Below are positions 6,481-60,546 of a stretch of 64,000 nt of DNA, one piece after another. The stretch lies in IMG/VR virus record IMGVR_UViG_3300003320_000853; one strand, given 5' to 3'. The position numbers were made by a program, and so were the translations under genes. Below the pieces are notes generated by a model. It ran no database searches, was not told where the DNA came from, and saw nothing but the letters and a program-made list of their open reading frames with translations. Within the stretch, counting starts at the first letter, position 1, and each line of letters opens with the position of its first letter. This stretch comes from a virus (taxonomy: Duplodnaviria > Caudoviricetes).

Positions 6481-6819
6481 ATGGATCTCGTTGCTCGCGT
6501 TGTTGCCCGATATCAGGGAGTCAAGGTTGCGGGGAAGTACCATTCCGTGATGGTCGACCTGGTATCGCGGATCGATGACTTGAGAGATCCTGACAAGATC
6601 AAGCAAGATCGAGAGCGTGTTCTCAAGCTCGGGGAGATGATTTCCGCCGATGAGGAATGGCACGCGTCCCCGGCGGCACAGGGATTGGCAGCGCATGCTG
6701 TCGTTCAGAGGACGGAGGATCTGGCCGAGGCGCTCTATGAGCTGGCGTTCGTAACCCGGCGGGTGCAAGAATCGTACGACGACATGAATGAAACCTTCCT
6801 CCGGCTCGGGTTGAAGTAA
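6481..6819 (+). CDS. Putative internal virion protein with RVVARY tag
   Basis: MDLVARVVARYQGVKVAG N-terminus shared with seven other ORFs. Confidence 0.6.
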   Translation: MDLVARVVARYQGVKVAGKYHSVMVDLVSRIDDLRDPDKIKQDRERVLKLGEMISADEEWHASPAAQGLAAHAVVQRTEDLAEALYELAFVTRRVQESYDDMNETFLRLGLK

Positions 6820-6821
6820 TC

Positions 6822-8276
6822 ATGGCCTTTCTCCGGTACGCTTACGCGAAGACCATTCAGCCGGATATCAAGGTCGCCGGGTGGGAAGAGATCCGCCGTG
6901 CGGGCAACCCTTTCGTGGAACGGGCGGCTGCCAAGGTCGTCTTCACGGAATTCAGCCCGAACGACTACATGCTCTCGCACTGCACGATCATCGCGTCGGT
7001 CGACGCGGAGCCGGGCAATGCGCCCCTTGGAAAGAGCGTCGTCGACGGCTTCCAGATCAACCGGAAGTACCCCGATTGGCTCGTCACCCAGAAGACGGCC
7101 AAGTACATCAACAACAACAACGACGCCTGGGAGAGGAAGCTCCTCCTCTCGTGCTTCCGCACTTTCATCGGTGGCGAGAACTACGTCGAGCACATTCAGA
7201 TCCCAGAATTCAGCCGTGGGAAGATCATCGACGCGGCGGCTCGGGACATCGGGGACTCGATCTACGTCGACATCCTCGTGGCGACCCATCGGAAGCATCA
7301 GCCCCTCATCGCGTCGATCACGAGCGGAGCCCTACAGACTCTCTCGATGGGCTGCCAGGTCGAATTCACGATCTGCACGAAGTGTGGGAACGTCGCCTAC
7401 GACGAGACGCAGCTCTGCCCCCACGTGCGGTTCGCCAAGGGCACCCCGTGGAAAGATGCGGCCGGCAATGAGCGCATCGTCGCCGAGCTATGCGGCCACA
7501 TCGAGGAGGAGCCCGGGAGCGTCAAGTTCATCGAGGCGTCGTGGGTGGGCAACCCCGCTTTCACGGGAGCGGTTCTTCGCAACATCCTGAACCCCCGGGA
7601 GGCGGCGATCCACGAGGCCAAGCTCAAGAGCGCTCTCGCCGAGATGCCTCGCGTTCCGAATCTCGACCTCTTCCAGAAGGCGGCCTACCAGCTCAAGATC
7701 AGCCAGTACGGGGATCAGGGGGATCAGGGGAGCGATCCCGCGCCGAAGAAGAAGCCGGAGAAGAGTCCCTTCGATTCGGCCGTCGACGATCTCGCGGATC
7801 ATCTCCGAGAGAAGGCGGTCGAGAAGGTTCGGGGGGAGATCCACAAGGACGAGTCCCCGCTTCGAGACGAGAACCAGAACGACACCCTGATCAAGTCCGC
7901 GCTCCGAAATCCCGTCTGGAGGGAGATGGCCCGAGCTGTCATCGCGACCGTGGGTACGGGCAAGCCGGCGCGCAAGACACTTCTGGGGCTCATCCTCCTC
8001 AAGACTGGGGGATGGGAGGCCGTGCGATCCGCGAAACTCCTCACGGGGCGCGAGATCCTCGCTCTTTCCCGCATGATCGACCTCGCCCACAAGCGCACGA
8101 TCATGGCCGGAGAAGGGCGCATTTATCGAACTATTGTCGCGGTTGGCGGGACGTCCCCATACCGCGACGAAGCGCACTACATGGCGGCGTGCCGTCGTGT
8201 CTTGGGTAGGGATCCTACTCAAGACGAGAAGAGGGTCCTCCTCGTCAAGGGGCAGCTCTTCTCGTTCGGTGCATGA
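6822..8276 (+). CDS. Prohead (capsid maturation) protease
   Basis: NNNNDAW, NYVEH, GKIIDA, LSMGCQVEFTICTKCG...CPH and FIEASWVGNPAF fit a herpes/HK97-type (assemblin-fold) protease with a Zn insert; directly precedes scaffold and capsid. Confidence 0.8.
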   Translation: MAFLRYAYAKTIQPDIKVAGWEEIRRAGNPFVERAAAKVVFTEFSPNDYMLSHCTIIASVDAEPGNAPLGKSVVDGFQINRKYPDWLVTQKTAKYINNNNDAWERKLLLSCFRTFIGGENYVEHIQIPEFSRGKIIDAAARDIGDSIYVDILVATHRKHQPLIASITSGALQTLSMGCQVEFTICTKCGNVAYDETQLCPHVRFAKGTPWKDAAGNERIVAELCGHIEEEPGSVKFIEASWVGNPAFTGAVLRNILNPREAAIHEAKLKSALAEMPRVPNLDLFQKAAYQLKISQYGDQGDQGSDPAPKKKPEKSPFDSAVDDLADHLREKAVEKVRGEIHKDESPLRDENQNDTLIKSALRNPVWREMARAVIATVGTGKPARKTLLGLILLKTGGWEAVRSAKLLTGREILALSRMIDLAHKRTIMAGEGRIYRTIVAVGGTSPYRDEAHYMAACRRVLGRDPTQDEKRVLLVKGQLFSFGA

Positions 8277-8286
8277 TTCTGTTTAT
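8275..8286 (+). promoter_or_regulatory. Putative late-promoter motif
   Basis: GATTCTGTTTAT upstream of the scaffold gene. Confidence 0.4.
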
Positions 8287-8351
8287 ATTCCGTCAGCCTA
8301 CGTAAATCGACGTCATCACGTCGATCGGAGGCTGCCCGAGAGGGGTCGAAC

Positions 8352-9722
8352 ATGCGCGCACGCACCACTTGGAACCGCGAGCAGATCAGGCAGGCTTCGG
8401 CGGGCAGGACCGCCGAGGATCCTCGGGCTATGAACCAGGATCACCTTTCGCAGCAACCGCGGGCGGATGCGTATGTGAACGGTGATCCTTCGTCCTGGGC
8501 CGAGGACGTCCGCAAGCCGAACACGTGGGACGTCGAGTACAGCGGCGGCGCCACCAAGCGTGACGAGATCGGCATGCCGGAGAAGCGCCCCGAGACCTAC
8601 AACCACCCGGAGAAGACGGCTGCCATGGAGGAGATGCGACTGTCCAAGAAGGCCGAGTTCACGTGCAAGCTCGCCAAGCTCATGCTCGGTTCGGGCGCCA
8701 CGGAGACCGCGGTCGAGGATCAGGCCGTGTCCCTCATGCACATGCCGGACGAGGCCCTCATCACGACGTACAACACCCTGAGCGAGAAGCTCGCCGATCA
8801 GTCGCAGTTCCCCGGGGGTCAGTACCCGACCGCGGAGCAGCAACAGCAGTCGGCTCAGCAGCAAGTCGCCATGTACCAGCAACAGGCGCAGCAAGCGCTT
8901 CAGTCTGGTGACTTCGAGCAGGCCAAGCAGGCCCTCGAACAGTGCATGGCGGCTCAGCAGGGTCAGCAGGGCCAGGGTCAGCAACAGGTGATGGCCGGGC
9001 AGAAGAGGGCCGATGGGACAGTGGCTCCGGCCCCCGCGACTCCGGCTCCGGCTCCGGCAGCTTCCACTTCGGCGCCCGCGGCTCCGGCCGTGGCGGCCCC
9101 CGCTCCGTCGACGACTCCCGACATCAACGCGATCGTCCAGACGGCGGTCCAGGCGGCCCTCAAGCAGGCCGGGGTGCTTCGGGCCGACGATCAGCAGCAA
9201 CAGCAGGGGCAGCAGCAGCAGGGGCAGGGCCAGGGTCAGCAGCAACAGGCCAGCCAGCAACAGGGGCAGCCGCAGGGTCAGGGCCAGATGCAGCAGCAGA
9301 GCCAGCAACAGGCTCAGATGCAGCAGCAGGCCGACGATGCCCTCCTCGACGAGCTGATGATGGGCCAGGGCCAGGGCGGGATGTCGGAGGCCGACATCGA
9401 GCTGGAGGCTCCCCCGATGGACACCGGCGAGGTCGTGCTCGGTCCGGAGGACGACGTCCTCCAGACGCTCTTCGCCAACGAGGAGACCCAGGCCGCCGAG
9501 CAGGCTCAGCAGGGCCAGGGCGACCAGGGCCAGAAGCAGGCGGGCATGGGTCGCACGGCTTCGACCCGTACCGTGGGCACGCGTCCCACGGGTGGTGTCG
9601 CGAAGGTCGGCGGTGCCTCCGGGGCCGCGGGCCAGCCCACCCGCGGTGGCAGTGACATCGACAAGCTCGCGGCCCTCTGGCCTTCGGCTCCCGATGTCCG
9701 CGGTGCCTTCAATATGACCTAG
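8352..9722 (+). CDS. Capsid scaffolding protein (Gln/Ala/Pro-rich)
   Basis: Low-complexity poly-Q and PA linkers; position between protease and capsid genes; many [KR]xA sites. Confidence 0.65.
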   Translation: MRARTTWNREQIRQASAGRTAEDPRAMNQDHLSQQPRADAYVNGDPSSWAEDVRKPNTWDVEYSGGATKRDEIGMPEKRPETYNHPEKTAAMEEMRLSKKAEFTCKLAKLMLGSGATETAVEDQAVSLMHMPDEALITTYNTLSEKLADQSQFPGGQYPTAEQQQQSAQQQVAMYQQQAQQALQSGDFEQAKQALEQCMAAQQGQQGQGQQQVMAGQKRADGTVAPAPATPAPAPAASTSAPAAPAVAAPAPSTTPDINAIVQTAVQAALKQAGVLRADDQQQQQGQQQQGQGQGQQQQASQQQGQPQGQGQMQQQSQQQAQMQQQADDALLDELMMGQGQGGMSEADIELEAPPMDTGEVVLGPEDDVLQTLFANEETQAAEQAQQGQGDQGQKQAGMGRTASTRTVGTRPTGGVAKVGGASGAAGQPTRGGSDIDKLAALWPSAPDVRGAFNMT

Positions 9723-9807
9723 TCCCTCCGGGACATGCGCCTTTCGAGGCGGGATCGAATCGCATCAAACACCCGAACCAAACCAACGTGCCCAGGAGCA
9801 AACATAG

Positions 9808-10443
9808 ATGACTTCCTACGCCATTGGTGGACAGAGCTCGGGTGACTTCAAGGAGACCTCTGCGCGCGTCCAGCTTCTCAACGTCGTCACCCGGAATTCC
9901 CAGGGTGTCCTGACGCCGGACGCGTTCTCGCAGGCGAATCCCCCCGTCGTCACCGGCCAGAAGTCCTCCACCCTGAACGCCATCGGCGGCAAGCTCGGCG
10001 TCCTCGGGGGCAGCATCGCCTTCACCCGATACGACTTCGGCAACGGCTTCCATGGGGGGCCGCTCAAGGTCGGTGGCAACTACGACGCTCGGGTGAAGCC
10101 TCTCGGCTTCTTCCTGAACGACTCGCTCGGGAACGCCTTCGAGAACACCCCCGGTGTCGCTTCGACGCGCGGTCCGTACGTGTGCGGCGTGGGTTCCACC
10201 GTCGGCCTCTCGATCTACGAGACGAAGAAGCAGGTCGCGACGAATCCCGGTGACGCGATCACCTGGACGGCGGGCGATCCGGTCTACGCCTCGGTCAACG
10301 GCTACGCCACGAACGTCGTCGGTGACGCTTACGAGTTCAACGTCTCGGGGCAGAACGACGTGAAGTTCGTGACCCTCATGGGCATCGTGAAGGTCGCCCC
10401 CGACGCCAATTCGTCGCTCCTCGTGATCGACACCCGGATCTGA
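9808..10443 (+). CDS. Capsid cement/decoration protein
   Basis: AGGAG RBS; PLGFFLND...YET...WTAGDPVYASVNG...MGIVKVAP beta-tulip-like pattern; immediately before the MCP. Confidence 0.65.
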   Translation: MTSYAIGGQSSGDFKETSARVQLLNVVTRNSQGVLTPDAFSQANPPVVTGQKSSTLNAIGGKLGVLGGSIAFTRYDFGNGFHGGPLKVGGNYDARVKPLGFFLNDSLGNAFENTPGVASTRGPYVCGVGSTVGLSIYETKKQVATNPGDAITWTAGDPVYASVNGYATNVVGDAYEFNVSGQNDVKFVTLMGIVKVAPDANSSLLVIDTRI

Positions 10444-10462
10444 GAGAGGAGCAGAGGACACC

Positions 10463-11344
10463 ATGAATCAGCAGGTTTCCAACGAGCTGAAGCAGCAAAT
10501 CATCAGCGAGTACATCAAGACGGCTTCCGGCCGAGCGAAGCTCGCTGCGTCGATGATCCAGCCGCTCCGGCTGCGTCGCGACTACACCGCGGTGGGTCGC
10601 AAGACCTTCCTCGTGGAGCAGCTCCCGGACGGCGCGCTCCCGATCTACGACAAGGATCCGGACGTCACGGCATTCGTCGTCGGCGAGGAGGGCCAGAACA
10701 TCCTCGCGATCCAGAAGCCGCGCCGCGTGATCTTCCCCCTGTTCGAGATCGCCTCGAACCCGGAAATCCCGCTCACTCAGATCAAGGAGCGTCGCTTCGA
10801 TCTCATCGAGCGCGCTCAGGATCTCGCCAAGGCGCAGATCCAGGCTGCGGAGGACGAGCGGGTCTTCACCGTCCTCGACTCGATCGCCGTCTCGGGCTTC
10901 GACACCCTCCCCGGGCAGACGAACCCCGACGTCGCCGTGGTCGCCCCGATCTCGCCGGCCGTCCTCGCGGACGCCTTCGCGGAGATCGAGCGCCACGACC
11001 TCCGGGTCGCGCGCATCTACATGAACGCCGTGGACTATGCGGACATCCGCAAGTTCGGGCGTGACATCCTGGACATCGAGAGCCAGGCGACCCTCCTCAA
11101 GACCGGCCTCCAGGCCGTTCTGTGGGGTGCGCAGATCATCACGAGCCGCCTCGTCCCCGTCGGCTTCGTCTACATCTGCGCCGAGCCCGAGAACTTCGGC
11201 CGCTTCCCGGTCCGCACCGAGCTCACGGTGCTCTCGGCCGACGACCCGAAGGCCCGCACCATCGGCTTCTCGTGCTTCCAAAATGTCGGCATTGGGGCAT
11301 TCAACCCCAAGGCGCTGACGAGGGTCGTGGTTCAGCGCTTCTAG
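10463..11344 (+). CDS. Major capsid protein (HK97 fold, 293 aa)
   Basis: GRAKLAASMIQPLRLRRDY...FEIASNPEIPL...IQAAEDERVF...IYMNAVDYADIRKFG...LWGAQIITSRLVP; very strong codon bias; followed by a terminator. Confidence 0.85.
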   Translation: MNQQVSNELKQQIISEYIKTASGRAKLAASMIQPLRLRRDYTAVGRKTFLVEQLPDGALPIYDKDPDVTAFVVGEEGQNILAIQKPRRVIFPLFEIASNPEIPLTQIKERRFDLIERAQDLAKAQIQAAEDERVFTVLDSIAVSGFDTLPGQTNPDVAVVAPISPAVLADAFAEIERHDLRVARIYMNAVDYADIRKFGRDILDIESQATLLKTGLQAVLWGAQIITSRLVPVGFVYICAEPENFGRFPVRTELTVLSADDPKARTIGFSCFQNVGIGAFNPKALTRVVVQRF

Positions 11345-11802: not shown

Positions 11803-12699
11803 ATGAAGTGGGCACGCTTCCCTTCGCTTCCGAGAATGTTTCACGTGCCCGAGAGCGTGAGGGATACCAAGCCGCTCACTCCTCCTGGCACCGACCTATC
11901 CATCTGGCAATGGGATGATGAGCGGGGGCGTCCGACCGCCATCGTCTTCCAGGGGGATTCAAACAAGCCTTTGTGGAAGTACACCTTCGGAAACGAGGCC
12001 CAGCGTCATCATGAGATCGTCGAGGCCGCTCGGATCCGCAAAGAGCAGCTCAAGGAGGAAACGATGACCCTCAACGATCGGGTCTTGGCGCGGTTCAAGC
12101 AGTCTCTCGACCTTGGGAAGACGTTCTTCACCGAGAGCCTCAAGTTCCACCACTGGCGCGGGCACCTCACCATCACGGACATCACGAACGCCGGGAAGCG
12201 GGGGAAGAAGGTTCGCGAGCTGGTGGTGACGCCGAACACACGGGGTGGGGACGCCCGAGCCGAGGAGGTGATCAAGCACCTCGTTCCGACGCTCACGCAC
12301 ATGAACTACGACCAGGCGAAGGGCAAGATGGAAGACCTTCAGGAGGAACTCGACGACAACGGCAAGCCCGTCGTCGAGCTCTTCGAGAGGATCCTCCGTG
12401 GGGTCGACGTCGAGCCTCCCGGCACGAAGATCGAGCTGACCAACAAGTTCGAGAATGGGACCATCCTGCGCATCGAGTCGAGCCCCCACGACTTCCATCT
12501 CACGAACAGCGCTCTGTTCGGCGCCGCTGGGGAGAAGCCGTCCTTCCGTCAGGACACCGGCTACTGGCCTCGGTCGAAGAAGGACGGCATCCTGTTCTAT
12601 GCCTGGCTCAAGGAAAACATGGCCAAGGCGTCCAAAATGACGATCCAGGACTTCCAGAAGGTCTGGGATCAGCTCGGCGTCACGTACAACCAGCACTGA
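11803..12699 (+). CDS. Two-module hypothetical protein; second module starts at 12064 with the RVLARF tag
   Basis: CCGGTAGACT 11 nt before ATG 11803; internal AAGGAGG RBS before ATG 12064 (MTLNDRVLARFKQS). Confidence 0.6.
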   Translation: MKWARFPSLPRMFHVPESVRDTKPLTPPGTDLSIWQWDDERGRPTAIVFQGDSNKPLWKYTFGNEAQRHHEIVEAARIRKEQLKEETMTLNDRVLARFKQSLDLGKTFFTESLKFHHWRGHLTITDITNAGKRGKKVRELVVTPNTRGGDARAEEVIKHLVPTLTHMNYDQAKGKMEDLQEELDDNGKPVVELFERILRGVDVEPPGTKIELTNKFENGTILRIESSPHDFHLTNSALFGAAGEKPSFRQDTGYWPRSKKDGILFYAWLKENMAKASKMTIQDFQKVWDQLGVTYNQH

Positions 12700-15465: not shown

Positions 15466-15467
15466 GA

Positions 15468-18595: not shown

Positions 18596-18853
18596 ATGGC
18601 TACAACACTTGTCGATCGAGTTGTCCGTCGATTTCTTCAGGGGAATACGTCGAAGGTCAGTCGTATGACCCTCCCCCAGGTCTACAACAACCTGAAGATC
18701 ATCTACGACTACGAAGAGGGCAAGACCAAATCTCGGCCGGGGGCTGAGCAACTCGTCAACGACGCCATCAAGCGTCTGGAAGATGAGGGGATCGACGTCT
18801 CGGGAGCCCTTCGGACCATGACCAAGGGGCCTCGGGGATGGATCGACATGTGA
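18596..18853 (+). CDS. Putative internal virion protein with RVVRRF tag
   Basis: MATTLVDRVVRRFLQG. Confidence 0.6.
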   Translation: MATTLVDRVVRRFLQGNTSKVSRMTLPQVYNNLKIIYDYEEGKTKSRPGAEQLVNDAIKRLEDEGIDVSGALRTMTKGPRGWIDM

Positions 18854-19191
18854 ATCTCGCCGACCGCGTCCTCCACAGGTACAAAAGCGCGGCGAACAAG
18901 GCGCTCACGGATGCGGAGTATCAAAAGACCGCCACCGACGTGCTCGCGGCGATCAAGCGGATCGGAGAGGACACCAGTACGGTTCGGGAGGGTGTCGTCA
19001 ACATGGCGCTCACGCTCAAAGATCGAGGTCACTTCCGTGATGCCTCGACTTTGATGGAGATGGCTCCGGACATGAGCGGCGTGCCCGAGCATCTATCGGC
19101 CATGGTCGAGCGTCTCAAGAAGGTCCCCGCCGACATGCGCAAGTCCCCGAAGCCCGGGCCGAAACCGAACCCCTGGACGAAGCCCCTCTAG
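18850..19191 (+). CDS. Putative internal virion protein with RVLHRY tag
   Basis: GTGA overlap with the upstream stop; VNLADRVLHRYKSAA. Confidence 0.6.
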   Translation: MNLADRVLHRYKSAANKALTDAEYQKTATDVLAAIKRIGEDTSTVREGVVNMALTLKDRGHFRDASTLMEMAPDMSGVPEHLSAMVERLKKVPADMRKSPKPGPKPNPWTKPL

Positions 19192-27840: not shown

Positions 27841-30600
27841 GTGGGTATCGGCTTTACCCCTCTATCCGAAGGCCCGATCGGGAACTTTCCCAACGATGAG
27901 ATCCTCATCGGGATCTCGGGTCTTGGGACGCTTACTTCTACAGGCGTCGATGTCCACGTAGGGAGCGGATCTTCGACGGGCGCCGCGGTCCTTTCTTGTA
28001 CGGGCGTTGATGCCCACGTTGGAACGTGCTCCTCCTCTGGCGCTGCAACGGCAACGTGTGCCGGCGTTGTAACGGGGACCACGATCACAATTGCAGGCGT
28101 TGGGACCCTCTCCTGCGTTGGCGTCGATGTTCACGTTGGATCCGCTGCTATCTCTGGGGTGGGAGCCCTCACCTCGGGCGGGATCGACGCTCACATTGGG
28201 TCGGGATCCTCCGCGGGCGTCGGATCGGATGCTGCGGTTGGCGTCGATGTTCACGTCGGGTCCGGTACCAGCGCTGGCGTAGGTACGGCATCCGGATCCG
28301 GCGTCGATGCCCATCCCGGAACGGGATCGAGTGCGGGCGTCGGTGCAGCTTCTGCATCCGGTATTGATGCCCATGTCGGCACCCTTGCCAGCTCGGGTCT
28401 CGGGACCGAGACGACCTCCGGCATCAATGTCCACGTTGGGTCCCCCTCTATCTCCGGGCAGGGGACAGCAACGGCGACGGGGGTCGATGAACACCTCGCG
28501 ACTGTCTCGATCACGGGCGTCGGCACCCTTTCATGTACCGGCGTCGATGCTCGCATTGCCACACAGACGAGTGCTGGATCTGGTACAGCTTCGGCGTCTG
28601 GTGTCGACGCCCATCCGGGAACGGCAGCCATCTCGGGCGTCGGAGCTCTCTCTTGTGGGGGCGTGGACGTTCATGTTGGGGCGGCGACCATCGCTGGCCT
28701 TGGAACGGAGACTTGCAGCGGGGTCGACGTTCACATCGCGTCCGTATCGAGTTCGGGGCAGGGATCCCTATCTTGCTCGTCGGTCGATGCCCATCCCGCT
28801 ACCGCATCGAGCTCGGGGACGTCGTCCCTCTCTTGCTCCGCCATCGAAGCCGTTCCTGCCACTTGGAACTCGGCGGGTCTCGGAACTGCGTCGTGCGTTG
28901 GGGTTCTCGTCGATGCGGCCCTCGTCCAGATCGCGGGAACGGCGACCCTCACCAGCGCGGGCGTGGACGTTCATGTTGGGACGAACGCAAGTTCGGGCAC
29001 TGGCGTCGCTTCGGGTTCCGGGATTCAGGCGGTTCCAGGCACGGCATCGATCTCGGGGACGGCTACAGCTTCATGCACCGCGGTCGATGCTCATCCGGGA
29101 ACGGGCACGTCCGCGGGACATGGCACCCTGTCCTGCTCGGCGATCCTCGCCCGCACGGGGGTTCTCAGCTCGGCCGGAACTGGGACGGCGGCGTGTGATG
29201 GGCAAGTCGAAAACCCGACCGGCGTCGAAGCGGATGGGATCGGGGTTCTCACCTGTGCTGGCATTGATGCCCATGTCGGGGCTCCCGCTGCCTCTGGGGT
29301 GGGATTCGCGATCTCGGTCGGGGTCGATGCCCACCTCGGAGCCTTGTCTTCCGCGGGCGTCGGAACCCTCTCCGCAACCGGCGTCGATGCCCGGGTATCG
29401 AGCGCGTCCCTCTCCGGAGCAGCGACGGCGACGGCGGCAGGAATTCAGGCGGTCCCTGGCACGGCGTCCGCACATGGGGCAGGGTCTCTTGCCTGCTCGG
29501 CCCTGCAAGCGGTCCCAGGTGTTCTGGCTGCGCATGGTGCGGCCACGGCTTCCTGCTCGGCTCTACAAGCCGACGTGGGGCTATGCCAGGCCTCGGGCCT
29601 CGCGACCACAAGTTGTGCAGGGGTTCGTACTCACGTCGGCATTCTCTCGGCGGCGGGAAGTGCGTCCGCTTCTGTGTCAGGTGGGCAGACCATCATCGGG
29701 ATCGCAGCGGCGCAGGGGTCTGCCGTTGTCTCGATCACGGGAGTCCATACGCATGTCGCGGCCCAAGCCGCCAACGGTTCGGCCTCCGCAGTTTGTGATG
29801 GCAATGTCATTCAGCCCGAGCACCTTGAATCACAAGGGGAGGCGGTCCTTGGAGTCCAGGGCGTTCATGTCGTAACGCTGCCCGTCAGCATCCTCGGACA
29901 GGGGACTCTCCTGTGTGCTGGGGTTCGCGTTGAAACCAACACGGAACACAGCTCGGGCATCGCCGTCGTTATTCCCGTCGGGCATCTGCTCGCCGTGGGG
30001 AATTTGCTGGCCCATGGCGCCAGTGTGTTGGTGTGTATTGGGGTCAACCACCCGCCGGTCGCCGGGCAGGTCCCGTTCCTTGGGTTTGGAGATACGCATG
30101 CCAGTGTGATCCGTATCGACTACCTGACGGCGGCGTTTTTGGGCGATGGGGCTGTGTTTCTCATCGGGTACCCAGAAGCTATGGTGGGGGTCGGGTACCT
30201 CACCGCGGTCCTGAACATCACGAACCTCCCGCCCATCAATGTCCCGCGTCCGCCGACTTTCCCCTTGGGCCATGTCTTCACCAGCGGGGACTTGACCTTC
30301 CAGGTCAAGGATGCGGCGGGCAATCCTCTCTCGCCGTTCGTGCTCACCTACGCGATCTTCCAGGTAAGGGCGGGGAACGTCCTCTTGCCCTTTGGCGACC
30401 CCAAGAGGCGGCCGGTGATGGGCATGGACGGACAGTTCTACCCGAGCTTCCTGGCCGACGACTTGGGGCAGCCGGGAGACTTCCTCCTCCGGTGGACCTA
30501 TCAAGAAAGTTTTTCTTCGCCCCCCGTTGTGAAGGACATCCCGTTCCGGATCAATGGGACCAGAGCGAATGGCACGCGAACACAGCGAGGGTGGTTCTGA
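27841..30600 (+). CDS. Long repetitive fibre protein (20-aa G[VI]D[AV]H repeats) with C-terminal Ig-like domain
   Basis: 919 aa; degenerate 20-aa tandem repeat; C-terminal domain similar to the N-terminus of 32258. Confidence 0.7.
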   Translation: MGIGFTPLSEGPIGNFPNDEILIGISGLGTLTSTGVDVHVGSGSSTGAAVLSCTGVDAHVGTCSSSGAATATCAGVVTGTTITIAGVGTLSCVGVDVHVGSAAISGVGALTSGGIDAHIGSGSSAGVGSDAAVGVDVHVGSGTSAGVGTASGSGVDAHPGTGSSAGVGAASASGIDAHVGTLASSGLGTETTSGINVHVGSPSISGQGTATATGVDEHLATVSITGVGTLSCTGVDARIATQTSAGSGTASASGVDAHPGTAAISGVGALSCGGVDVHVGAATIAGLGTETCSGVDVHIASVSSSGQGSLSCSSVDAHPATASSSGTSSLSCSAIEAVPATWNSAGLGTASCVGVLVDAALVQIAGTATLTSAGVDVHVGTNASSGTGVASGSGIQAVPGTASISGTATASCTAVDAHPGTGTSAGHGTLSCSAILARTGVLSSAGTGTAACDGQVENPTGVEADGIGVLTCAGIDAHVGAPAASGVGFAISVGVDAHLGALSSAGVGTLSATGVDARVSSASLSGAATATAAGIQAVPGTASAHGAGSLACSALQAVPGVLAAHGAATASCSALQADVGLCQASGLATTSCAGVRTHVGILSAAGSASASVSGGQTIIGIAAAQGSAVVSITGVHTHVAAQAANGSASAVCDGNVIQPEHLESQGEAVLGVQGVHVVTLPVSILGQGTLLCAGVRVETNTEHSSGIAVVIPVGHLLAVGNLLAHGASVLVCIGVNHPPVAGQVPFLGFGDTHASVIRIDYLTAAFLGDGAVFLIGYPEAMVGVGYLTAVLNITNLPPINVPRPPTFPLGHVFTSGDLTFQVKDAAGNPLSPFVLTYAIFQVRAGNVLLPFGDPKRRPVMGMDGQFYPSFLADDLGQPGDFLLRWTYQESFSSPPVVKDIPFRINGTRANGTRTQRGWF
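27920..30050 (+). repeat. Degenerate 60-nt coding tandem repeat
   Basis: Recurrent GGCGTCGATG[CT]NCA[CT] every ~60 nt. Confidence 0.75.
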
Positions 30601-30985
30601 CATTGCGGTGCGCGTTGCCCGCCGGTACTCCGGGTCAAAGCAGGTAGCCTTGAACCAGGACTTCTGGTTGACGCCTTCCGACATCGCCGAGGTCTGCCCG
30701 CCCTGTGCAACACGGATGGCGAGCCTCGGGATTCGCCGGATCCGGGCATCGGTGATCTTCGGGCAGGACATGCTCCGGCTGGCTTCGTCTGCGCACACAG
30801 CCGAGGCGTGGAAGAACCTGCCCGAGGGCTGGACGGACGACTCTCGGCGGAAGTTCTGGGAGTCCATCGGGGGATCTCTCCAGAAGTGCATGGCGAAGGT
30901 CGAGGGCCACGTGACCGACCCTGGAGCATTCGCCACCGCGCTCCGGGATCGGATCGAGCAATCCGGTTGGAAGGGACCTACATGA
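30569..30985 (+). CDS. Putative internal virion protein with RVARRY tag
   Basis: DIAVRVARRYSGSKQVA; CPPC; LPEGWTDDSRRKFW. Confidence 0.6.
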   Translation: MAREHSEGGSDIAVRVARRYSGSKQVALNQDFWLTPSDIAEVCPPCATRMASLGIRRIRASVIFGQDMLRLASSAHTAEAWKNLPEGWTDDSRRKFWESIGGSLQKCMAKVEGHVTDPGAFATALRDRIEQSGWKGPT

Positions 30986-31623
30986 GCACGTTGACGCAGC
31001 GGGTGATTAGGCGGTTCAAGAGAGCGTCTACCCGCACAGCGTCGAAGTTCGTTCCCCTGGGGGATGAACTAGACGACTTGAAGCGCTTCCCCAAGAAGCT
31101 CGCCGGCTATGTGGCGGACTTCGAGCAGGCTCTACAGATTCTAGGAAAGATCCAGGAGGTCTTGGAAAGCAAGCGCCTCGGAGAAGTTCTCCGTTCCGAT
31201 ATGGAGAATCTTGCCGAAGTCCGAGGTCTTGCCAAGAAGACGGAGGAATATCTCCGTGATGCCCTGACGGTCAGCGCCTACTATGTCGCCGAGTACACGA
31301 AGGGGGTCGCCTATTTGAAAGCGCACCCTGACAGTGAATTCAACATGGACGATCACCCCCATGATCACCATCTGCCCGCGCAGATGCGCGCCCTCAATGA
31401 GGGCTTGGGAAAAGCCTTCGCGGGGATCAAATCGCTCGACCTCGTCGATGACCTTCAAGATCATCTGGGAAGCAAACCCCTTGCCTCGGTAAAGAAGCTG
31501 CTTGTAGACATTCCGACGACGCCGCACGAGACTTCTGCGGAGTTCGGCTTCCTCGATACACTCGCCGACTCGATCGACAACGCCTACGACTTCACCATCG
31601 AGACCATCTCGGAGGACGCGTGA
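30982..31623 (+). CDS. Putative internal virion protein with RVIRRF tag
   Basis: ATGA overlap; MSTLTQRVIRRFKRASTRTAS. Confidence 0.65.
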   Translation: MSTLTQRVIRRFKRASTRTASKFVPLGDELDDLKRFPKKLAGYVADFEQALQILGKIQEVLESKRLGEVLRSDMENLAEVRGLAKKTEEYLRDALTVSAYYVAEYTKGVAYLKAHPDSEFNMDDHPHDHHLPAQMRALNEGLGKAFAGIKSLDLVDDLQDHLGSKPLASVKKLLVDIPTTPHETSAEFGFLDTLADSIDNAYDFTIETISEDA

Positions 31624-32258
31624 CCATCAGCCTTGCCCGACGTGTGCTCCGTCGATACCAGCGTCAGGTCCGAGGGTCCTCGAATGATTGGTACTTGTTC
31701 GAGGATGCGTGGACAGAGATCGAGGCATACCCCGGGAAGATCAAAGCCTATGCGGGGGAGTACGCAAAGGTGATCGCTGCCACGGAGAAGGTCCAGGAAC
31801 TCTTGAAGAGTCCGCCAATTGCCCGGGCCATCAAGGCAGACAAGTCTTTTCTTGCGGGGGTGCAGGAACTCGCGAAGGATGCAGACAGTCTCATCGAGGA
31901 TCTGCGCAAGTTCGACAAAGCCTACTACAAGACCGTTGAGGAGGCGCGGGTTTTCCTGAAGGAAAACCCCAAGGGCAAGTTCGAATTCAAGTCTCTTCGG
32001 AACGGACCGTTGATCGGGCGGGTTGCCAAGGTCGTAAAGCTGGAGCGGGATTCCACGAACGGGGAGACTTTCTGGATCCCAGGAGTCTGGGAAGAAGCAA
32101 ACGACCTCCTGAATTCTGCAACCCTCAAAGCCATCAATCGGATGGTGGAGAACATCGAGAACCCAGAGGATTTCCTTGGTTGGTTCTCTGAAGCTCTCGA
32201 CGCCTTGAAGGACGCCGACAAGACGGTTATGGACCACGCAAGAGATGGGGAAGACTGA
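31620..32258 (+). CDS. Putative internal virion protein with RVLRRY tag (diverged paralog of 30982)
   Basis: GTGA overlap; YPGKIKAYAGEY..KVQELLKS vs FPKKLAGYVADF..KIQEVLES. Confidence 0.65.
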   Translation: MTISLARRVLRRYQRQVRGSSNDWYLFEDAWTEIEAYPGKIKAYAGEYAKVIAATEKVQELLKSPPIARAIKADKSFLAGVQELAKDADSLIEDLRKFDKAYYKTVEEARVFLKENPKGKFEFKSLRNGPLIGRVAKVVKLERDSTNGETFWIPGVWEEANDLLNSATLKAINRMVENIENPEDFLGWFSEALDALKDADKTVMDHARDGED

Positions 32259-46331: not shown

Positions 46332-46360
46332 TTGACAGCTTCCAGGTCCGAGTGTAGTCT
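46332..46360 (+). promoter_or_regulatory. Sigma70-type promoter TTGACA-17 nt-TAGTCT
   Basis: Consensus -35, 17-bp spacer, GTG-TAGTCT. Confidence 0.7.
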
Positions 46361-46380
46361 CGGTGGCTGGAGGCTTACTT

Positions 46381-54963: not shown

Positions 54964-54966
54964 GGC

Positions 54967-56004: not shown

Positions 56005-56053
56005 GATTCGTTCTCCTTGTCTCTCTTACACCGTTCTGGGGGATGTTTTGGGA

Positions 56054-56302: not shown

Positions 56303-56475
56303 GTATTCCAGTACCTCCGCCACAAGGCATCCGTCTCGCCAGGAGGGTCGTCTTCGCGGGGACGCTTCACGAGAACCCCGATCGCGGGAGGGCGCCTCCG
56401 GTGCTCTGTGCAGGAGAGACAATCCTGTTCGCACCCGCAATGCGAACACATCGACCCTGTGTAGTGCTTCTCCAT
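56299..56475 (-). CDS. Small Cys-rich protein (58 aa)
   Basis: TGATG coupling to the kinase; CSHCGC...CLSC. Confidence 0.45.
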   Translation of the reverse strand: MEKHYTGSMCSHCGCEQDCLSCTEHRRRPPAIGVLVKRPREDDPPGETDALWRRYWNT

Positions 56476-57473
56476 CACGACCCCGAGGCGGGCCGCGTGC
56501 CCGGACGGATCTGTCCGAACGCCTTCTCCCGGATGGCCTTGAAGGCGTCGAAGAGGTCGCCCTGGGGCCGGTCGAGGGGGTGCTTCGCAGTGAGCTTCTT
56601 GATGAAGCGGCACATGGGCTCCGGAACGGTCGTCGGCACCTCGACCTTCTGGACGGCCTTCATGCCCCCGCCGAGGCCGTAGATCATGCACTGGCCGAGG
56701 GAGTAGTAGTCGGACGCGGGGATGAGAGGCTTGAGCGCGAGCTGCTCCGGCGGGGCGAAGAGCTCCGTGTACCCGTTGCCTCTCGTCTTGGACGTGGGCT
56801 TGACCTGCGACAGGCCGAAGTCGACGAGAACGACTCCGTGATGCTCCCACTGGAGGATGATGTTCTGCGGCTTGAGATCCCCATGGATCACGCCGAAGCG
56901 GTGGAGAAAGAGCAGGGCGTTGAGCAGGCGCTCCGTGATCCATCCCATGTCGTAGGGATCGATGCGGCCCTTCGTTTCGACCTCCTGCTCCAGGGTGGGG
57001 CCCTCGATGTACGACATGACGAGGGCCAGGGAGCCATCGTCGAGCCGGATCATGTCCCGCATCGACGGGAGCGCGAAATGCCGCAACGTTCCGAGGATCC
57101 GGGCCTCCTGGATGAGGACGGCATCGTGGGCAGCCGAGACCGAGGAGCAGTGCTTGATGCACACGATCTCCTTGGTGATGAGGTGCTCGGCGCGGAAGGT
57201 GGTTCCGAAGCCGCCTTCGGCGATCTGGGAGATGATCCGGTAGTTGCCGATGATGTTGTCGCCCTTGGGTGCCCGCTTCTTGTCGTGCTCGGCACGCTTG
57301 GTCGGATCCCCCAGGATGTCGAAGGCGTCCTTCAACGTCTTGAAGCGGGCCATGGATGGGTCCTGCCCGAAGACGAGCGTCTCGTAGGCTGCCTTGATCA
57401 CCTCGGCGCTGGCGCGGGGTGAGACCTCCAGGAGAGCGTAGGGATCGGGGATGGGCGTGGCGGTCTTCGGCAT
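56475..57473 (-). CDS. J-domain (degenerate) / Hanks-type Ser/Thr protein kinase fusion
   Basis: DPYALLEVSPRASAEVIKAAY...AFDILGDPTKRAEHD; IAEGGFG, VCIK, HGDLKPQN, DFG, APPE, SDYYSLG. Confidence 0.9.
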   Translation of the reverse strand: MPKTATPIPDPYALLEVSPRASAEVIKAAYETLVFGQDPSMARFKTLKDAFDILGDPTKRAEHDKKRAPKGDNIIGNYRIISQIAEGGFGTTFRAEHLITKEIVCIKHCSSVSAAHDAVLIQEARILGTLRHFALPSMRDMIRLDDGSLALVMSYIEGPTLEQEVETKGRIDPYDMGWITERLLNALLFLHRFGVIHGDLKPQNIILQWEHHGVVLVDFGLSQVKPTSKTRGNGYTELFAPPEQLALKPLIPASDYYSLGQCMIYGLGGGMKAVQKVEVPTTVPEPMCRFIKKLTAKHPLDRPQGDLFDAFKAIREKAFGQIRPGTRPASGS

Positions 57474-57486
57474 CTTGAGGATCTAG

Positions 57487-57524
57487 TACACCAGACCCCG
57501 AGGTTCCATTGTTCCCACGGTGTA
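57487..57524. promoter_or_regulatory. Back-to-back early-type promoters (TGGTGTA on minus, CGGTGTA on plus)
   Basis: Divergent kinase and 57535 genes each have the motif 12-15 nt upstream of their ATG. Confidence 0.55.
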
Positions 57525-57534
57525 ACAACGCGTC

Positions 57535-58389
57535 ATGCAGCAGATCGAGTTCAACGCGAAGATCGACCCCGATCTTCCCGCGATCGTCCCCGAAGCTGTC
57601 TCTTTCGAGACGGGGGCAACGAGAAGCCAGGCTGGCGACCCCGACCTTTTCGTCTACGAACATCACGGGCCGGAGTTCGGCAAGGCTGACCCAGGGGCGC
57701 TCACATGTTTCTTCGAGGATCTGATCCTCGGACGTCCCTTGCCCTTGACGTTTGCGACCCATCGGATCCGGGACCTCGACACCATCTTCGCGATGGCGCT
57801 CTTCTTCGACCGGACCCTTGCCATACATCCAGCCATGCCGGGCATCGTGGCCGCGGTGGATCTTGTCCATCGGCGGGGAACCCCCATGCTCGGGCACATC
57901 GACGCCGACTTGGGTCGCTTTTTTCGCGTCCTCCGGAGCTATTTCCCCGATGCAGGCCTCCCAATGCGTGAGCTTGGGGAGCGCCTGACGAAGGCCATCG
58001 GGTGGATCACGGAATACCTGGACGGAAGGCCGCCGTCGCTCGGGGCCCCATGGCCGTCGGTTCGGATCCTCGATGTCGGGACGAACGGCTTCGTCCTCGC
58101 AGAGACGCCCGGTTTGCTTCCCTCGGGCTGGATCGAGCTGTACCGGAGGGGATTCTTGAAGGGCTTGCTCATCGGTCCCGACCGGGATGGCCGTCGGGCT
58201 GTGCTTGTCGCCAGGAAGAGCACCTTCGTGGACTTCGACCTCATGAAGGCGGCGAGCATCTTCAACGAGGCCGAGCAGGCGAACGGAGAGCTTCCGAGCT
58301 GGCGGGCGGATCGTCTGTGGCTCTGGGGACCGGACGAGGGCACGCTCCTCCGCGTCTCCGAGATGCTCGAAGTCCTCCAGAGGGTCTAG
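57535..58389 (+). CDS. Divergent DHH-like phosphoesterase-fold protein
   Basis: YEHHG and THRIRDLDT motifs, VDLVHRRG. Confidence 0.4.
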   Translation: MQQIEFNAKIDPDLPAIVPEAVSFETGATRSQAGDPDLFVYEHHGPEFGKADPGALTCFFEDLILGRPLPLTFATHRIRDLDTIFAMALFFDRTLAIHPAMPGIVAAVDLVHRRGTPMLGHIDADLGRFFRVLRSYFPDAGLPMRELGERLTKAIGWITEYLDGRPPSLGAPWPSVRILDVGTNGFVLAETPGLLPSGWIELYRRGFLKGLLIGPDRDGRRAVLVARKSTFVDFDLMKAASIFNEAEQANGELPSWRADRLWLWGPDEGTLLRVSEMLEVLQRV

Positions 58390-58577
58390 TCCAGGCCGCA
58401 ATCCTCACAGACGACGATCATTCCGAGGAATCCCCCTTGGTAGTGGATCCGACCGTTGCACCGAGAACAGCGCCGGGGGTAGACCCCGCAACAGCGGTCT
58501 GACCCTCGGATGTGATCGATTCCGTCGAGATTGAGGTCGACCCCTGTACGCTCCTCGGCGGCGTCGGTTGTGGCCAT
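58386..58577 (-). CDS. Small Zn-ribbon protein
   Basis: CGGTGTA 12 nt upstream; CSRC...CEDC. Confidence 0.55.
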   Translation of the reverse strand: MATTDAAEERTGVDLNLDGIDHIRGSDRCCGVYPRRCSRCNGRIHYQGGFLGMIVVCEDCGLD

Positions 58578-58622
58578 GCTTCGCCATTACACCGCGTAAT
58601 CTTCCTGTTGCTGGGCCCTGGT

Positions 58623-59489
58623 GTGCCTGGCCGACGCCTCACAACGGTGACCATCGGGACCGATGGTCTCCGAGACTGGGTTCAGCTCCCAACCGGGGAG
58701 CGGTACAACCTCGGAACACTCTCCGTCCTCAACTTCATCGCCAAGTTCGTTCCGAGTCGTCTACAGGCTCGCCAGGCGCTCGACCGCTTCAACGCGGAGA
58801 TGGTGGCCATGGTGCCCGTAGACCTCGAAGCGATGTCTGCGATCTTCGTCCCACGTCGCGCCAGGTGGTCGTCCGCTAGTTCTCTTATCCTCGGGCAGGA
58901 TCGACATCCCCCCGGGTCGGGAAAGGACGCAAGCGTACCCATGGCAGACACGATGACTTTGCCGGAGAGTCTTCCGGCCCAGGTAGGTCTCATCGAAGCG
59001 CAGATCGATCAGATCGGCAGGATCGCCTCTGCGAATCTCCCGAAGCCGGTGCTCCGCGCAGCGGCTGTCGCTCTCAAGGAGATGGTCGCTGCGATCAAGC
59101 TTCCCGACTTCGGCGACCAGTCGAAGAACGACGCCTTCTATGGGCTCGGGGCACCTCGGGTCGACACGGCGGATCCCGGGCAGAAGCTCCCGGCCGAGGT
59201 CACGAACCCCAAGCTGGCTTCGCACGAGGCTCTCCTGGAGAACACGACTCTCGCCGAAGGCATCCTTCAACAGGTCGGGGAGACCGAGGCGAAGATCGAT
59301 CAACTCGTTCAGGCGGGCCGCAAGTTCAATGCGGCCCGGGCGAAGCAAGACCTTCACCAGGTCTCCGCTCGGCTCACCAACTTCCTCCAGGACGTCGACA
59401 TGGCGCAGCCCTGGGTCAAGGGTGACCTCGCCAAGCTCGCCAACCGATCCTCCGAGCTTCACGCTCTCTTCGCGACCGCCAAGGTCTGA
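58623..59489 (+). CDS. Hypothetical late protein with in-frame internal start at 58941
   Basis: TAATCTTCCTGT at 58597; TAGTTCTCTTATCC at 58877; KLAS site. Confidence 0.55.
   Translation: MPGRRLTTVTIGTDGLRDWVQLPTGERYNLGTLSVLNFIAKFVPSRLQARQALDRFNAEMVAMVPVDLEAMSAIFVPRRARWSSASSLILGQDRHPPGSGKDASVPMADTMTLPESLPAQVGLIEAQIDQIGRIASANLPKPVLRAAAVALKEMVAAIKLPDFGDQSKNDAFYGLGAPRVDTADPGQKLPAEVTNPKLASHEALLENTTLAEGILQQVGETEAKIDQLVQAGRKFNAARAKQDLHQVSARLTNFLQDVDMAQPWVKGDLAKLANRSSELHALFATAKV
58877..58890 (+). promoter_or_regulatory. Putative late promoter TAGTTCTCTTATCC (intragenic)
   Basis: Exact copy of the site at 41579; upstream of ATG 58941 and the tail tube gene. Confidence 0.6.
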
Positions 59490-59497
59490 GGTGATCG

Positions 59498-60205
59498 ATG
59501 CCGACCCCGAACACGAACTACATCTACCGGACAGGGACGGCTCCGAACACGCGTGCCGTTTCGAGCCAGAAGAACAAAATCTTCGGCTACGCGGTCGGCG
59601 CCACTGGCTTCATTCAGATCGGTGCCGTGTCCGAGTTCGGTGTCGACGAGTCGCGTACCATCGAGCCGGTGCGAGGTGTCGGCTTCGGTGACCAGATCGC
59701 CGAGCTGGTGCCGAGCGTGACCGAGCCGATGACCCTCACGCTCAACATGACCCTCCTGTACCAGCAGAACCTCTTCCAGGCGGTGGGGTACAAGGGAGGC
59801 ATCGACGGGCTCGTTCGCTCGCTCCGACATCACCGCTGGCCGTTCGACATCAAGCAAGAGATCGTCTTCTCCGAGATCGCGAACCTCGACGGCGTGACGA
59901 CCCCGCAGCCGGCGGACGTGAACGTGGGCCCGGCCATTTCCGGCATCGTGCCGGGGACGATCCAGGCGCTCTTCACCTACTTCGAGGGGTGCTGGTTCAA
60001 CAGCTACTCGGCGAGCTATACCAGCGACGCCGGTCTCGTGGCGCAGAACTCGTCGGTCACAGTCACCGACATCCTCGACGGGATCAGCCAGTACGGCGAG
60101 TTCATCGACACCGGCCTCGCCCCGATCGCCGAGAACGGCGCCGCGGGCAAGGGCTTCTCGCTCCGCTTCGCGGGCGGTACGACGGCTCCCCAGGTCACGG
60201 TCTGA
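59498..60205 (+). CDS. Tail tube protein
   Basis: IGAVSEF...SRTIEPVRGVGFGDQIAELVP...PFDIKQ...YFEGCWFNSYSASY; GAGGTG RBS. Confidence 0.85.
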   Translation: MPTPNTNYIYRTGTAPNTRAVSSQKNKIFGYAVGATGFIQIGAVSEFGVDESRTIEPVRGVGFGDQIAELVPSVTEPMTLTLNMTLLYQQNLFQAVGYKGGIDGLVRSLRHHRWPFDIKQEIVFSEIANLDGVTTPQPADVNVGPAISGIVPGTIQALFTYFEGCWFNSYSASYTSDAGLVAQNSSVTVTDILDGISQYGEFIDTGLAPIAENGAAGKGFSLRFAGGTTAPQVTV

Positions 60206-60216
60206 TCGTGACCCCC

Positions 60217-60546
60217 ATGTCTCTTCGAGTCGTCGGGCGGTTTCTCCAGGGAACCGCCAAGAGCTACGTCGATTGGCTCGAAGAGAAGGGCTACAAGCTC
60301 ACATCTGAGCAGTTCGCCGATCACAAAAATTTCCTAGAGACGATCACCCCTGCGCTCAAGGCTTTGAAACTCGTGCTCAACCGCTACGAGTTTCAGGGTG
60401 GGAGCTGGGAGAAGGGGGCGAAGTTCTCTCGGGAGGAGCTTCACACACTCGTGGAAGCCAAGAACATCTTGACCCGAGCTGAATTCCCTTTGGCGGGTTT
60501 GACCGTCGAAGAGAAGAAGCCGAAAATCCTGAAGATTCCCCGCTAG
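60217..60546 (+). CDS. Putative internal virion protein with RVVGRF tag
   Basis: MSLRVVGRFLQGTAK. Confidence 0.55.
   Translation: MSLRVVGRFLQGTAKSYVDWLEEKGYKLTSEQFADHKNFLETITPALKALKLVLNRYEFQGGSWEKGAKFSREELHTLVEAKNILTRAEFPLAGLTVEEKKPKILKIPR

What the first reader, a model, noticed from the sequence alone, without database searches (positions are those of the whole stretch)
6481..60546. Shared N-terminal RV[VLIA]xR[YF] tag on at least eight unrelated proteins: candidate capsid-targeting system
Seen: 6481 MDLVARVVARY; 12064 MTLNDRVLARF; 18596 MATTLVDRVVRRF; 18850 VNLADRVLHRY; 30569 DIAVRVARRY; 30982 MSTLTQRVIRRF; 31620 MTISLARRVLRRY; 60217 MSLRVVGRF. Weaker internal matches occur in 2348 (AVLRRF) and 19196 (HVVGLF). 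The bodies after the tag are unrelated except for one paralog pair. All are co-oriented inserts within late operons, and most have a [KR]x[AS] site soon after (KVA, KQS, KVS, KSA, RTA). Established: T4 internal proteins use a short N-terminal capsid-targeting sequence that the prohead protease removes. Inference: this is a portable amphipathic tag that loads interchangeable cargo (for example anti-defence or host-takeover proteins) into the head for injection.
Basis: partly seen in the sequence, partly recalled or inferred. Interest (0 to 1): 0.85.

Follow-up and report, generated by a model that had tools for sequence, protein, structure and literature searches.

The report
Portable address tag on huge-phage proteins
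Eight otherwise unrelated proteins in the virion-gene region of an uncultured huge phage start with the same short helical peptide (M-x-L-x-x-R-V-x-x-R-F/Y), a clade-wide address label that also sits on enzymes such as a topoisomerase and most plausibly loads them into the phage head, although what reads the label is still not shown.

Summary
The strict motif RV[VLIA]xR[YF] occurs 9 times in the six-frame translation, against 0.9 expected. Eight hits lie on the + strand, 1-14 residues after a plausible start codon.

Codons vary synonymously, so selection acts on the peptide. Bodies are unrelated except one paralog pair.

The window belongs to an uncultured clade of huge phages related to Bacillus phage G and Tunturi_5, with 558 IMG/VR relatives. 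The tag is clade-wide:
- Density is 4.7-5.1 hits per 100 kb in two relatives, 1.6 in LR745208.1, and chance level in cultured Tunturi_5.
- It also occurs at C-termini, in tandem, and at both ends of one protein.
- Tagged proteins include type IB topoisomerase, GNAT, a HAD phosphatase and a J-domain protein.

In an AF2 model the tag is a short helix on a loop, ahead of a well-folded body. No cleavage motif follows it.

A portable docking peptide is well supported. Capsid loading is my best guess (about 0.45), and T4-style removal by the protease is unsupported.

The major capsid protein is the only hyperconserved protein (95% against a 50% median), which makes it the best candidate reader. Phage ClpX is not required, because LR745208.1 has tags but no ClpX.

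The scan had already found this tag elsewhere in the same genome.

The parts
6481..6819 (+). Tagged gene t6481 (112 aa), directly upstream of the head protease. The tag is residues 1-13 (M-D-L-V-A-R-V-V-A-R-Y).
   Evidence: PSSM 21.4. The family (C-terminus ...FLRMGLK) exists without the tag in L030 and L022.
12064..12699 (+). Tagged gene t12064 (211 aa), the first sizeable gene after the MCP. The tag forms a helix at residues 3-10.
   Evidence: AAGGAGG Shine-Dalgarno. PSSM 26.1. There are 43 orthologs and most start M + 4-5 aa + RVAxR[FY]; nine carry two tandem tags. AF2 pLDDT 92.4, with the tag helix on a loop.
18596..18853 (+). Tagged gene t18596 (85 aa).
   Evidence: PSSM 21.9.
18850..19191 (+). 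Tagged gene t18850 (113 aa). GTG start overlaps the previous stop; an alternative ATG lies at 18838.
   Evidence: PSSM 24.8.
30569..30985 (+). Tagged gene t30569 (138 aa). The tag starts at residue 15 (nt 30611).
   Evidence: Ortholog in G001 is 71% identical with the same 14-16 aa lead. PSSM 12.4.
30982..31623 (+). Tagged gene t30982 (213 aa), paralog of t31620.
   Evidence: ATGA overlap and Shine-Dalgarno. PSSM 24.6. Paralogy E 4e-13.
31620..32258 (+). Tagged gene t31620 (212 aa).
   Evidence: GTGA overlap and GGAGGA Shine-Dalgarno. PSSM 23.5.
60208..60546 (+). Tagged gene t60217 (109-112 aa; start GTG 60208 or ATG 60217). It follows a homolog of Tunturi_5 'virion structural protein' gp329.
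   Evidence: PSSM 14.5.
2348..5323 (+). Large protein (991 aa) lying between the portal gene and the protease gene. It has an internal tag-like helix at nt 2531-2548 (A-V-L-R-R-F-L), after NYKDVGG.
   Evidence: Orthologs carry a full RVxxRF at this place. In G003 a second tag heads the last 270-aa module.
10463..11344 (+). Major capsid protein (HK97 fold), the candidate reader of the tag.
   Evidence: phrog_2522 E 8e-52. It is 98% and 94% identical to G001 and G003, while all other proteins are 28-88% identical. It is an outlier against a median of 50% and of 35%.
6822..8276 (+). Head maturation protease (context).
   Evidence: phrog_18299 and phrog_2774.
8352..9722 (+). Gln-rich scaffold-like protein with a conserved C-terminal motif (context).
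14..1363 (+). Portal protein (context).
   Evidence: phrog_16240 E 3e-15.

Best explanation
The peptide [M]-[DTS]-L-x-x-R-V-[ALV]-x-R-[FY]-[LKQ]-x-A is a portable docking peptide. It is about 12-14 residues long and forms an amphipathic helix with two flanking arginines.

It is attached through a flexible linker to the N-terminus of unrelated proteins, less often to the C-terminus, sometimes twice. One common phage-encoded partner reads it.

Shown: the tag is real, it is under peptide-level selection, it is clade-wide, it is position-flexible, and it sits on small orphan proteins and on enzymes.

Inferred: the partner is the assembling procapsid. Tagged proteins would then be loaded into the head and delivered with the DNA. 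The best candidate receptor is the interior of the uniquely hyperconserved major capsid protein, in the manner of encapsulin cargo loading. Removal of the tag by the head protease is not required.
For: Enrichment and N-terminal placement: (9 observed against 0.9 expected; P 4e-6). The same holds in G001 (P 1e-6), G003 (P 3e-7) and LR745208.1 (6 N-terminal hits against 0.08 in shuffles).

Peptide-level selection: synonymous codon variation. In 43 orthologs of t12064 at 23-55% identity, the tag's R, V and R carry 3.1-3.5 bits, similar to core residues.

Portability: 45 distinct N-terminal instances on different bodies. C-terminal, tandem and double-ended instances also occur.

Cargo with known domains:
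- type IB topoisomerase (E 1e-28 and 8e-27);
- GNAT;
- HAD_SAK_1 (E 3e-17);
- a J-domain, at 27.4 bits against a cut-off of 27.8.

Structure: the tag is a helix at residues 3-10 on a loop, before a confident body.

Links to the head:
- Eight tagged genes are co-oriented and translationally coupled inside the portal-protease-MCP-neck-sheath operons. Their density is 10.9 per 100 kb, against about 5 genome-wide in relatives.
- In the window the large protein between portal and protease carries the tag-like helix.
- In LR745208.1 a topoisomerase-like protein with a degenerate C-terminal tag lies between portal and protease (the HAD and topoisomerase IB domains are my reading of its sequence, not a domain search).
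- The MCP is the only hyperconserved protein in tag-bearing phages.
- Tunturi_5, whose MCP is 48% identical, has no tag.

Precedent: the T4 capsid targeting sequence, and Alt with propeptides at both termini (PMC9026906).
Against: - There is no direct evidence of binding or of presence in virions.
- In the complete relative G003, only about a quarter of tagged genes lie in the structural block.
- G001 has a tag island at 178-183 kb, away from virion genes.
- No cleavage motif follows the tag.
- The t6481 family exists without the tag in relatives, and only 5 of 45 loci have a tag just upstream of the protease.
- MCP hyperconservation could have other causes, such as the constraints of a very large T number.
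Confidence: 0.45

Rival explanations
1. The tag docks proteins on another hub that is not the capsid. Candidates are the replication, repair or transcription machinery, DNA itself, or a phage-made intracellular body. It would work like clamp-binding or SSB-tail-binding peptides.
For: The annotated cargo are nucleic-acid and protein-modifying enzymes: topoisomerase IB, HAD of RNA-repair type, GNAT and a J-domain. Most tagged genes in G003 lie outside the structural block. Either-terminus and tandem placement is typical of hub-binding linear motifs. The same genome has a second, acidic C-terminal tag, so more than one address exists.
Against: It does not explain why so many tagged orphan genes are embedded in and coupled to virion operons. 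No conserved candidate hub stands out: after the MCP, the next most conserved protein is 77% identical, or 55% against LR745208.1.
Confidence: 0.25
2. The tag is a ClpX-binding peptide, either an adaptor-like tether or a degron. It would be read by the zinc-binding N-domain of the phage's own ClpX or of the host's ClpX.
For: G001, G003, G004 and G005 encode ClpX with a zinc-binding domain. Tagged genes flank clpX in G001 and G003. From my own knowledge, the tag resembles the SspB XB peptide (L-R-V-V-K).
Against: LR745208.1 (485 kb, recorded as a chromosome-level assembly) has no ClpX at all (with a positive control on G003), yet it keeps significant N-terminal tags. The flanking arrangement is one shared syntenic block, not two independent events. 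By eye, the ZBD sequences of G001 and G003 differ at many positions, while the tag consensus is unchanged. ClpP is found only in G003. Host ClpX cannot be excluded.
Confidence: 0.12
3. The tag is a generic membrane-targeting amphipathic helix (MinD, FtsA or MreB style), or the tags bind each other or the acidic tag and so build a multiprotein body.
For: It is a terminal, transplantable, sometimes tandem amphipathic helix with basic residues. A basic tag and an acidic tag co-exist in one genome, and one acidic-tag gene (12720-13055) lies directly after t12064.
Against: R, V and R keep a fixed register in orthologs at 23-55% identity. That is far more specific than membrane helices need to be. 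The hydrophobic face is small and rich in alanine. LR745208.1 keeps the basic tag but has no acidic tag by my pattern.
Confidence: 0.12
4. There is no function. The motif comes from chance, hidden paralogy, or a DNA-level repeat at gene starts.
For: Motifs this short can arise by chance. One antisense hit exists.
Against: There are 9 hits against 0.9 expected, and placement gives P 4e-6. Codons vary synonymously. Bodies are unrelated. The tag recurs in four genomes, in 80 loci, and at C-termini.
Confidence: 0.02

Closest known systems
T4 capsid targeting sequence (CTS) of IPI, IPII, IPIII and Alt
   Same: A short peptide of about 10 residues on otherwise unrelated, fast-evolving proteins. It is portable to foreign proteins in T4. 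Genes carrying it are dispersed in the genome. The phage has a portal-protease-scaffold-MCP head module. T4 Alt has propeptides at both termini (PMC9026906).
   Different: There is no sequence likeness. Here the peptide also sits at C-termini, in tandem and internally. No cleavage motif is enriched after it. Packaging and removal are untested.
Encapsulin cargo-loading (targeting) peptides
   Same: A short peptide on a flexible linker at either terminus of unrelated enzymes, read (there) by the interior of an HK97-fold shell protein and not removed. Here the HK97-fold MCP is the one hyperconserved protein.
   Different: The consensus is different. The shell here is a DNA-filled phage head with a separate scaffold and protease. 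Binding to the MCP is not shown. Most cargo genes are not next to the shell gene.
SspB C-terminal XB peptide docking on the ClpX N-domain
   Same: A short basic/hydrophobic terminal peptide with an R-V-V core. Most clade members encode ClpX with the zinc-binding domain.
   Different: The tag persists in a relative without phage ClpX. From my own knowledge, the XB peptide binds as an extended strand, whereas this tag is modelled as a helix.

Membership tests
T4-type capsid targeting sequence | Short N-terminal peptide shared by otherwise unrelated proteins | tested here: met
   It also occurs at C-termini, which T4 IPs do not show.
T4-type capsid targeting sequence | Peptide is followed by a prohead-protease cleavage site and is removed | tested here: inconclusive
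   [AGS]xE, [LIV]xE and [KR]x[AS] are not enriched in the 25 residues after the tag. The specificity of this protease is unknown, so cleavage cannot be excluded.
T4-type capsid targeting sequence | Tagged proteins are found inside proheads and virions, and are injected | not testable with these tools
   No cultured member of the clade is in the phage collection searched. Tunturi_5 lacks the tag.
T4-type capsid targeting sequence | Phage has a protease-scaffold core head-assembly module | tested here: met
   Portal, protease and MCP by PHROGs. Gln-rich scaffold-like protein with a conserved C-terminal motif.
Encapsulin cargo-loading peptide | Terminal peptide on a flexible linker, at either end, on unrelated enzymes | tested here: met
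Encapsulin cargo-loading peptide | Peptide binds the luminal face of an HK97-fold shell protein | not testable with these tools
   Only indirect evidence: the MCP is uniquely hyperconserved in tag-bearing phages.
Encapsulin cargo-loading peptide | Cargo gene lies in an operon with the shell gene | tested here: inconclusive
   In the window t12064 is the first sizeable gene after the MCP, and L020 has a tagged GNAT about 3 kb downstream. Most tagged genes are elsewhere.
SspB-type ClpX-binding (XB) peptide | A ClpX with a zinc-binding N-domain is present wherever the tag is present | tested here: not met
   LR745208.1 has tags but no phage ClpX. Host ClpX is not excluded.
SspB-type ClpX-binding (XB) peptide | Peptide binds the ClpX N-domain | not testable with these tools

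The most novel reading that the evidence does not exclude
The head of these huge phages works as a programmable protein container of the encapsulin type. An uncleaved helical peptide, usable at either end and in multiple copies, docks dozens of interchangeable proteins on the interior of the capsid protein for delivery into the host. These include topoisomerase IB, an acetyltransferase, a phosphatase and a J-domain co-chaperone. This many-partner hub role would be what has frozen the capsid protein at about 95% identity while the rest of the genome drifted to about 50%. A second, acidic tag in the same genomes would then address a different destination, making a two-address protein-sorting system in a virus.
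Probability: 0.25. Interest if true: 0.85.

Novelty: new variant of a known kind. Interest (0 to 1): 0.7.

Why it matters
Portable targeting peptides are the handle by which phages load protein cargo, and by which engineers load foreign proteins into capsids. Only the T4 capsid targeting sequence and encapsulin peptides are well characterised.

Here a different peptide serves a large, globally distributed, uncultured clade of 300-530 kb phages (at least 558 contigs). It marks roughly 1 gene in 10 in this window, and it is attached to recognisable enzymes.

If the destination is the head, the tag gives a direct list of the injected proteome of uncultured huge phages. That list would cover candidate anti-defence and takeover factors, and the tag itself would be a new, short, terminus-independent packaging signal. 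If the destination is something else, the tag defines an unknown hub in huge-phage biology.

Either way the question can be tested with one peptide and a few recombinant proteins.

Tried and rejected
- Complex prediction. I folded the MCP, two copies of the ClpX N-domain (residues 1-52 of P0275), the 35-residue tag as partner, and zinc. The verdict was 'no answer' (score 0.00, controls not run). This is no evidence either way.
- Pfam and PHROGs on the eight window cargo proteins and the head-module neighbours gave nothing beyond portal, protease and MCP.
- Fold search with the confident t12064 model gave no Foldseek match at E <= 0.001 and no VIA-align match at Z >= 5. The fold is unassigned. 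That does not prove it is new.
- I tested whether the gene just upstream of the protease is always tagged. It is not: only 5 of 45 loci, and the t6481 family occurs untagged.
- I tested for a cleavage site after the tag and found no enrichment.
- The MCP C-terminus (...T-R-V-V-V-Q-R-F) looked like a built-in tag. I rejected this because the spacing is off by one and relatives show an alternating strand-like pattern.
- A DNA-level repeat is rejected by the synonymous codon variation.
- A near-identical phage record was sought and none found. No whole genome is held for the window.
- Orthologs of t30982 and t18850 in IMG/VR number one and none, so I built no alignments or models for them.
- Literature searches for a described tag of this kind in huge phages found none.
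Full report
**What the window is.** The window has 63% G+C and almost all genes lie on the + strand. PHROGs identify three head genes:
- a portal at 14-1363;
- a head maturation protease at 6822-8276;
- an HK97-type major capsid protein (MCP) at 10463-11344.

Homology to annotated Tunturi_5 genes adds a minor tail protein, a tail terminator, a tail sheath (41657-46312) and a 'virion structural protein' (59498-60205). The MCP is 82% identical to that of the uncultured phage LR745208.1 (485 kb). It is 48% identical to Tunturiibacter phage Tunturi_5 and 39% to Bacillus phage G. IMG/VR holds 558 relatives whose MCP is 90-98% identical, on contigs of up to 529 kb. Earlier notes of this scan put the window in a roughly 377-kb genome. 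The database copy of t12064 lies on a 376,986-bp contig.

All eight quoted N-termini are present.
- The strict motif occurs 9 times in the six-frame translation, against 0.9 +/- 1.0 in resampled sequence.
- Eight hits are on the + strand, just after a start codon. Several starts have a Shine-Dalgarno sequence or an ATGA/GTGA overlap with the upstream stop.
- The codons of the conserved residues differ from copy to copy.
- The bodies are unrelated, except the pair 30982 and 31620.
- About 70 genes are called in the window, so roughly one gene in nine carries the tag.

**The tag is clade-wide and position-flexible.** I fetched three whole relatives: G001 (275 kb), G003 (529 kb, rated 100% complete) and LR745208.1.
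- From 45 distinct N-terminal instances the consensus is M-[DTS]-L-x-x-R-V-[ALV]-x-R-[YF]-[LKQ]-x-A. The initiator Met is most often five residues before the first Arg.
- A position matrix finds 7 hits in the window (10.9 per 100 kb), 14 in G001, 25 in G003 and 8 in LR745208.1. It finds one non-terminal hit in Tunturi_5.
- In LR745208.1, 6 hits are N-terminal, against 0.08 expected from shuffles.
- The same peptide also closes proteins: 5 C-terminal cases in G003, 2 in G001, and several in the MCP loci.
- It also occurs in tandem (G003 299147/299177; nine orthologs of t12064).
- It sits at both ends of single proteins: G003 9784-10671 and 335722-337029, and G001 178664-180544.
- In the large portal-adjacent protein it is internal. 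It lies after a conserved NYK[ND][VI]GGS, and in G003 a second copy heads the last module.

**Orthologs keep the tag.** The t12064 family has 43 members at 23-55% identity.
- Most begin exactly M + 4-5 residues + RVAxR[FY]. This supports 12064 as the start, rather than the 287-aa database call (P0392).
- The R, V and R columns carry 3.1-3.5 bits, comparable to core residues.
- The most distant members lack the tag.
- The AF2 model is confident (pLDDT 92.4). It shows the tag as a helix at residues 3-10 (pLDDT about 63), on a loop at residues 11-19, ahead of an alpha/beta body. That body has no clear match among solved structures.

**What is tagged.** The window's cargo proteins have no family assignment. 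In relatives, tagged proteins include:
- type IB topoisomerase, twice, once with tags at both ends;
- a GNAT acetyltransferase;
- a HAD phosphatase of the RNA-repair 'SAK' type;
- a J-domain protein, just under the Pfam cut-off;
- a weak metallopeptidase-like hit.

Cargo ranges from 77 to about 1300 residues, with pI from 4.8 to 12.

In LR745208.1, by my reading of the printed translation, a fused HAD-topoisomerase IB protein ending in a degenerate tag lies between the portal and the protease. No domain search was run on that protein. Its basic C-terminal linker is homologous to the N-terminus of the window's large protein.

**Who reads it?**

Capsid.
- The window's tagged genes are embedded in virion operons, at twice the genome-wide density.
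- The MCP is a striking outlier. It is 94.8% identical between G001 and G003, where the next best protein is 77% and the median is 50%.
- It is 82% identical between G001 and LR745208.1, where the next best is 55% and the median is 35%.
- MCP-region DNA is only about 80% identical. The protein conservation therefore reflects purifying selection, not recent transfer.
- Tunturi_5, with an MCP at 48%, has no tag.
- This correlation fits a hub role for the MCP but does not prove it.
- The scaffold-like protein has its own conserved C-terminal motif, which is unlike the tag.

ClpX.
- Most clade members encode ClpX with a zinc-binding N-domain, and tagged genes flank it in one shared syntenic block.
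- LR745208.1 has no ClpX (with a positive control) yet keeps the tag. Phage ClpX is therefore not the obligatory reader.
- The acidic C-terminal tag noted by other agents is absent from LR745208.1 by my pattern. It is present twice in this window.

**Against a T4-type cleaved propeptide.** No candidate cleavage motif is enriched after the tag. C-terminal and internal tags also do not fit. T4 Alt does have propeptides at both termini.

**Limits.** There is no binding or virion evidence. About three quarters of tagged genes in G003 lie outside the structural block. The t6481 family occurs without the tag in relatives.

**Verdict.** This is a real, portable, clade-wide docking peptide (about 0.9). 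Head loading is the best-supported destination (about 0.45), with the MCP as the best candidate reader. It is a new variant of a known kind. The scan had already noted this tag elsewhere in the same genome (e1-5754086, e1-5754078).

- the head-module context;
- the C-terminal, tandem and double-ended forms;
- the enzyme cargo;
- the MCP outlier result;

Noticed in passing
window 12720-13055 (+), and a small ORF ending at 39960 (+): Two proteins end in the second, acidic tag of this genome (...P-T-A-W-E-H-L-L-A-D-D-P-V stop and ...P-T-A-W-E-V-L-L-G-E-D-G-I stop). The first lies directly after the basic-tagged t12064. G001 and G003 have 3 and 5 such C-termini by my pattern, and LR745208.1 has none.
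   Followed up: partly
window 10463-11344; G001 45652-46533; G003 343030-343896: The major capsid protein is 94-98% identical across phages whose other proteins have a median identity of about 50%. Against Tunturi_5 it is not an outlier (48%, others 30-47%). This points to a clade-specific freeze of the capsid protein.
   Followed up: yes
window 1364-2347: A minus-strand ORF (1367-2110, good codon score) lies between the portal and the large protein. In G001 the large protein follows the portal directly, so this may be an inserted gene. Its identity was not examined.
   Followed up: no
window 2348-2500 and L001 12851-12991: The basic N-terminal roughly 50 residues of the large protein (...E-R-L-V-R-P-S-P-K-V-K-P-P-R-R-D...) are homologous to the C-terminal linker of the protein in LR745208.1 that I read as a HAD-topoisomerase IB fusion. 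This suggests a shared 'basic linker plus tag' module that moves between proteins.
   Followed up: partly
window 8352-9722: A Gln-rich, low-complexity scaffold-like protein. Its last roughly 20 residues (...K-L-[AS]-x-L-W-x-S-A-P-D-[VI]-x-x-A-F...) are conserved in G001, G003 and LR745208.1. This is a likely capsid-binding end.
   Followed up: partly
window 6822-6850: The protease N-terminus M-A-F-[LA]-[RK]-Y-A-Y-A is conserved in the relatives looked at (L039, and as M-P-M-M-K-Y-A-Y-A in LR745208.1). It resembles the second half of the tag (R-Y-x-x-A). The significance is unknown.
   Followed up: no
G003 54555-59375 (-): In the complete relative G003 the phage clpX gene lies about 1.6 kb downstream of the portal gene and is followed by two tagged genes. 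In G001 the portal gene and clpX are about 125 kb apart.
   Followed up: partly
window 5755-6477: A 240-aa protein with a C-terminal zinc-ribbon-like motif (C-P-R-C ... C-P-K-D). The LR745208.1 homolog has the full C-P-R-C ... C-P-S-C. It is conserved in the head module between the large protein and the protease.
   Followed up: no
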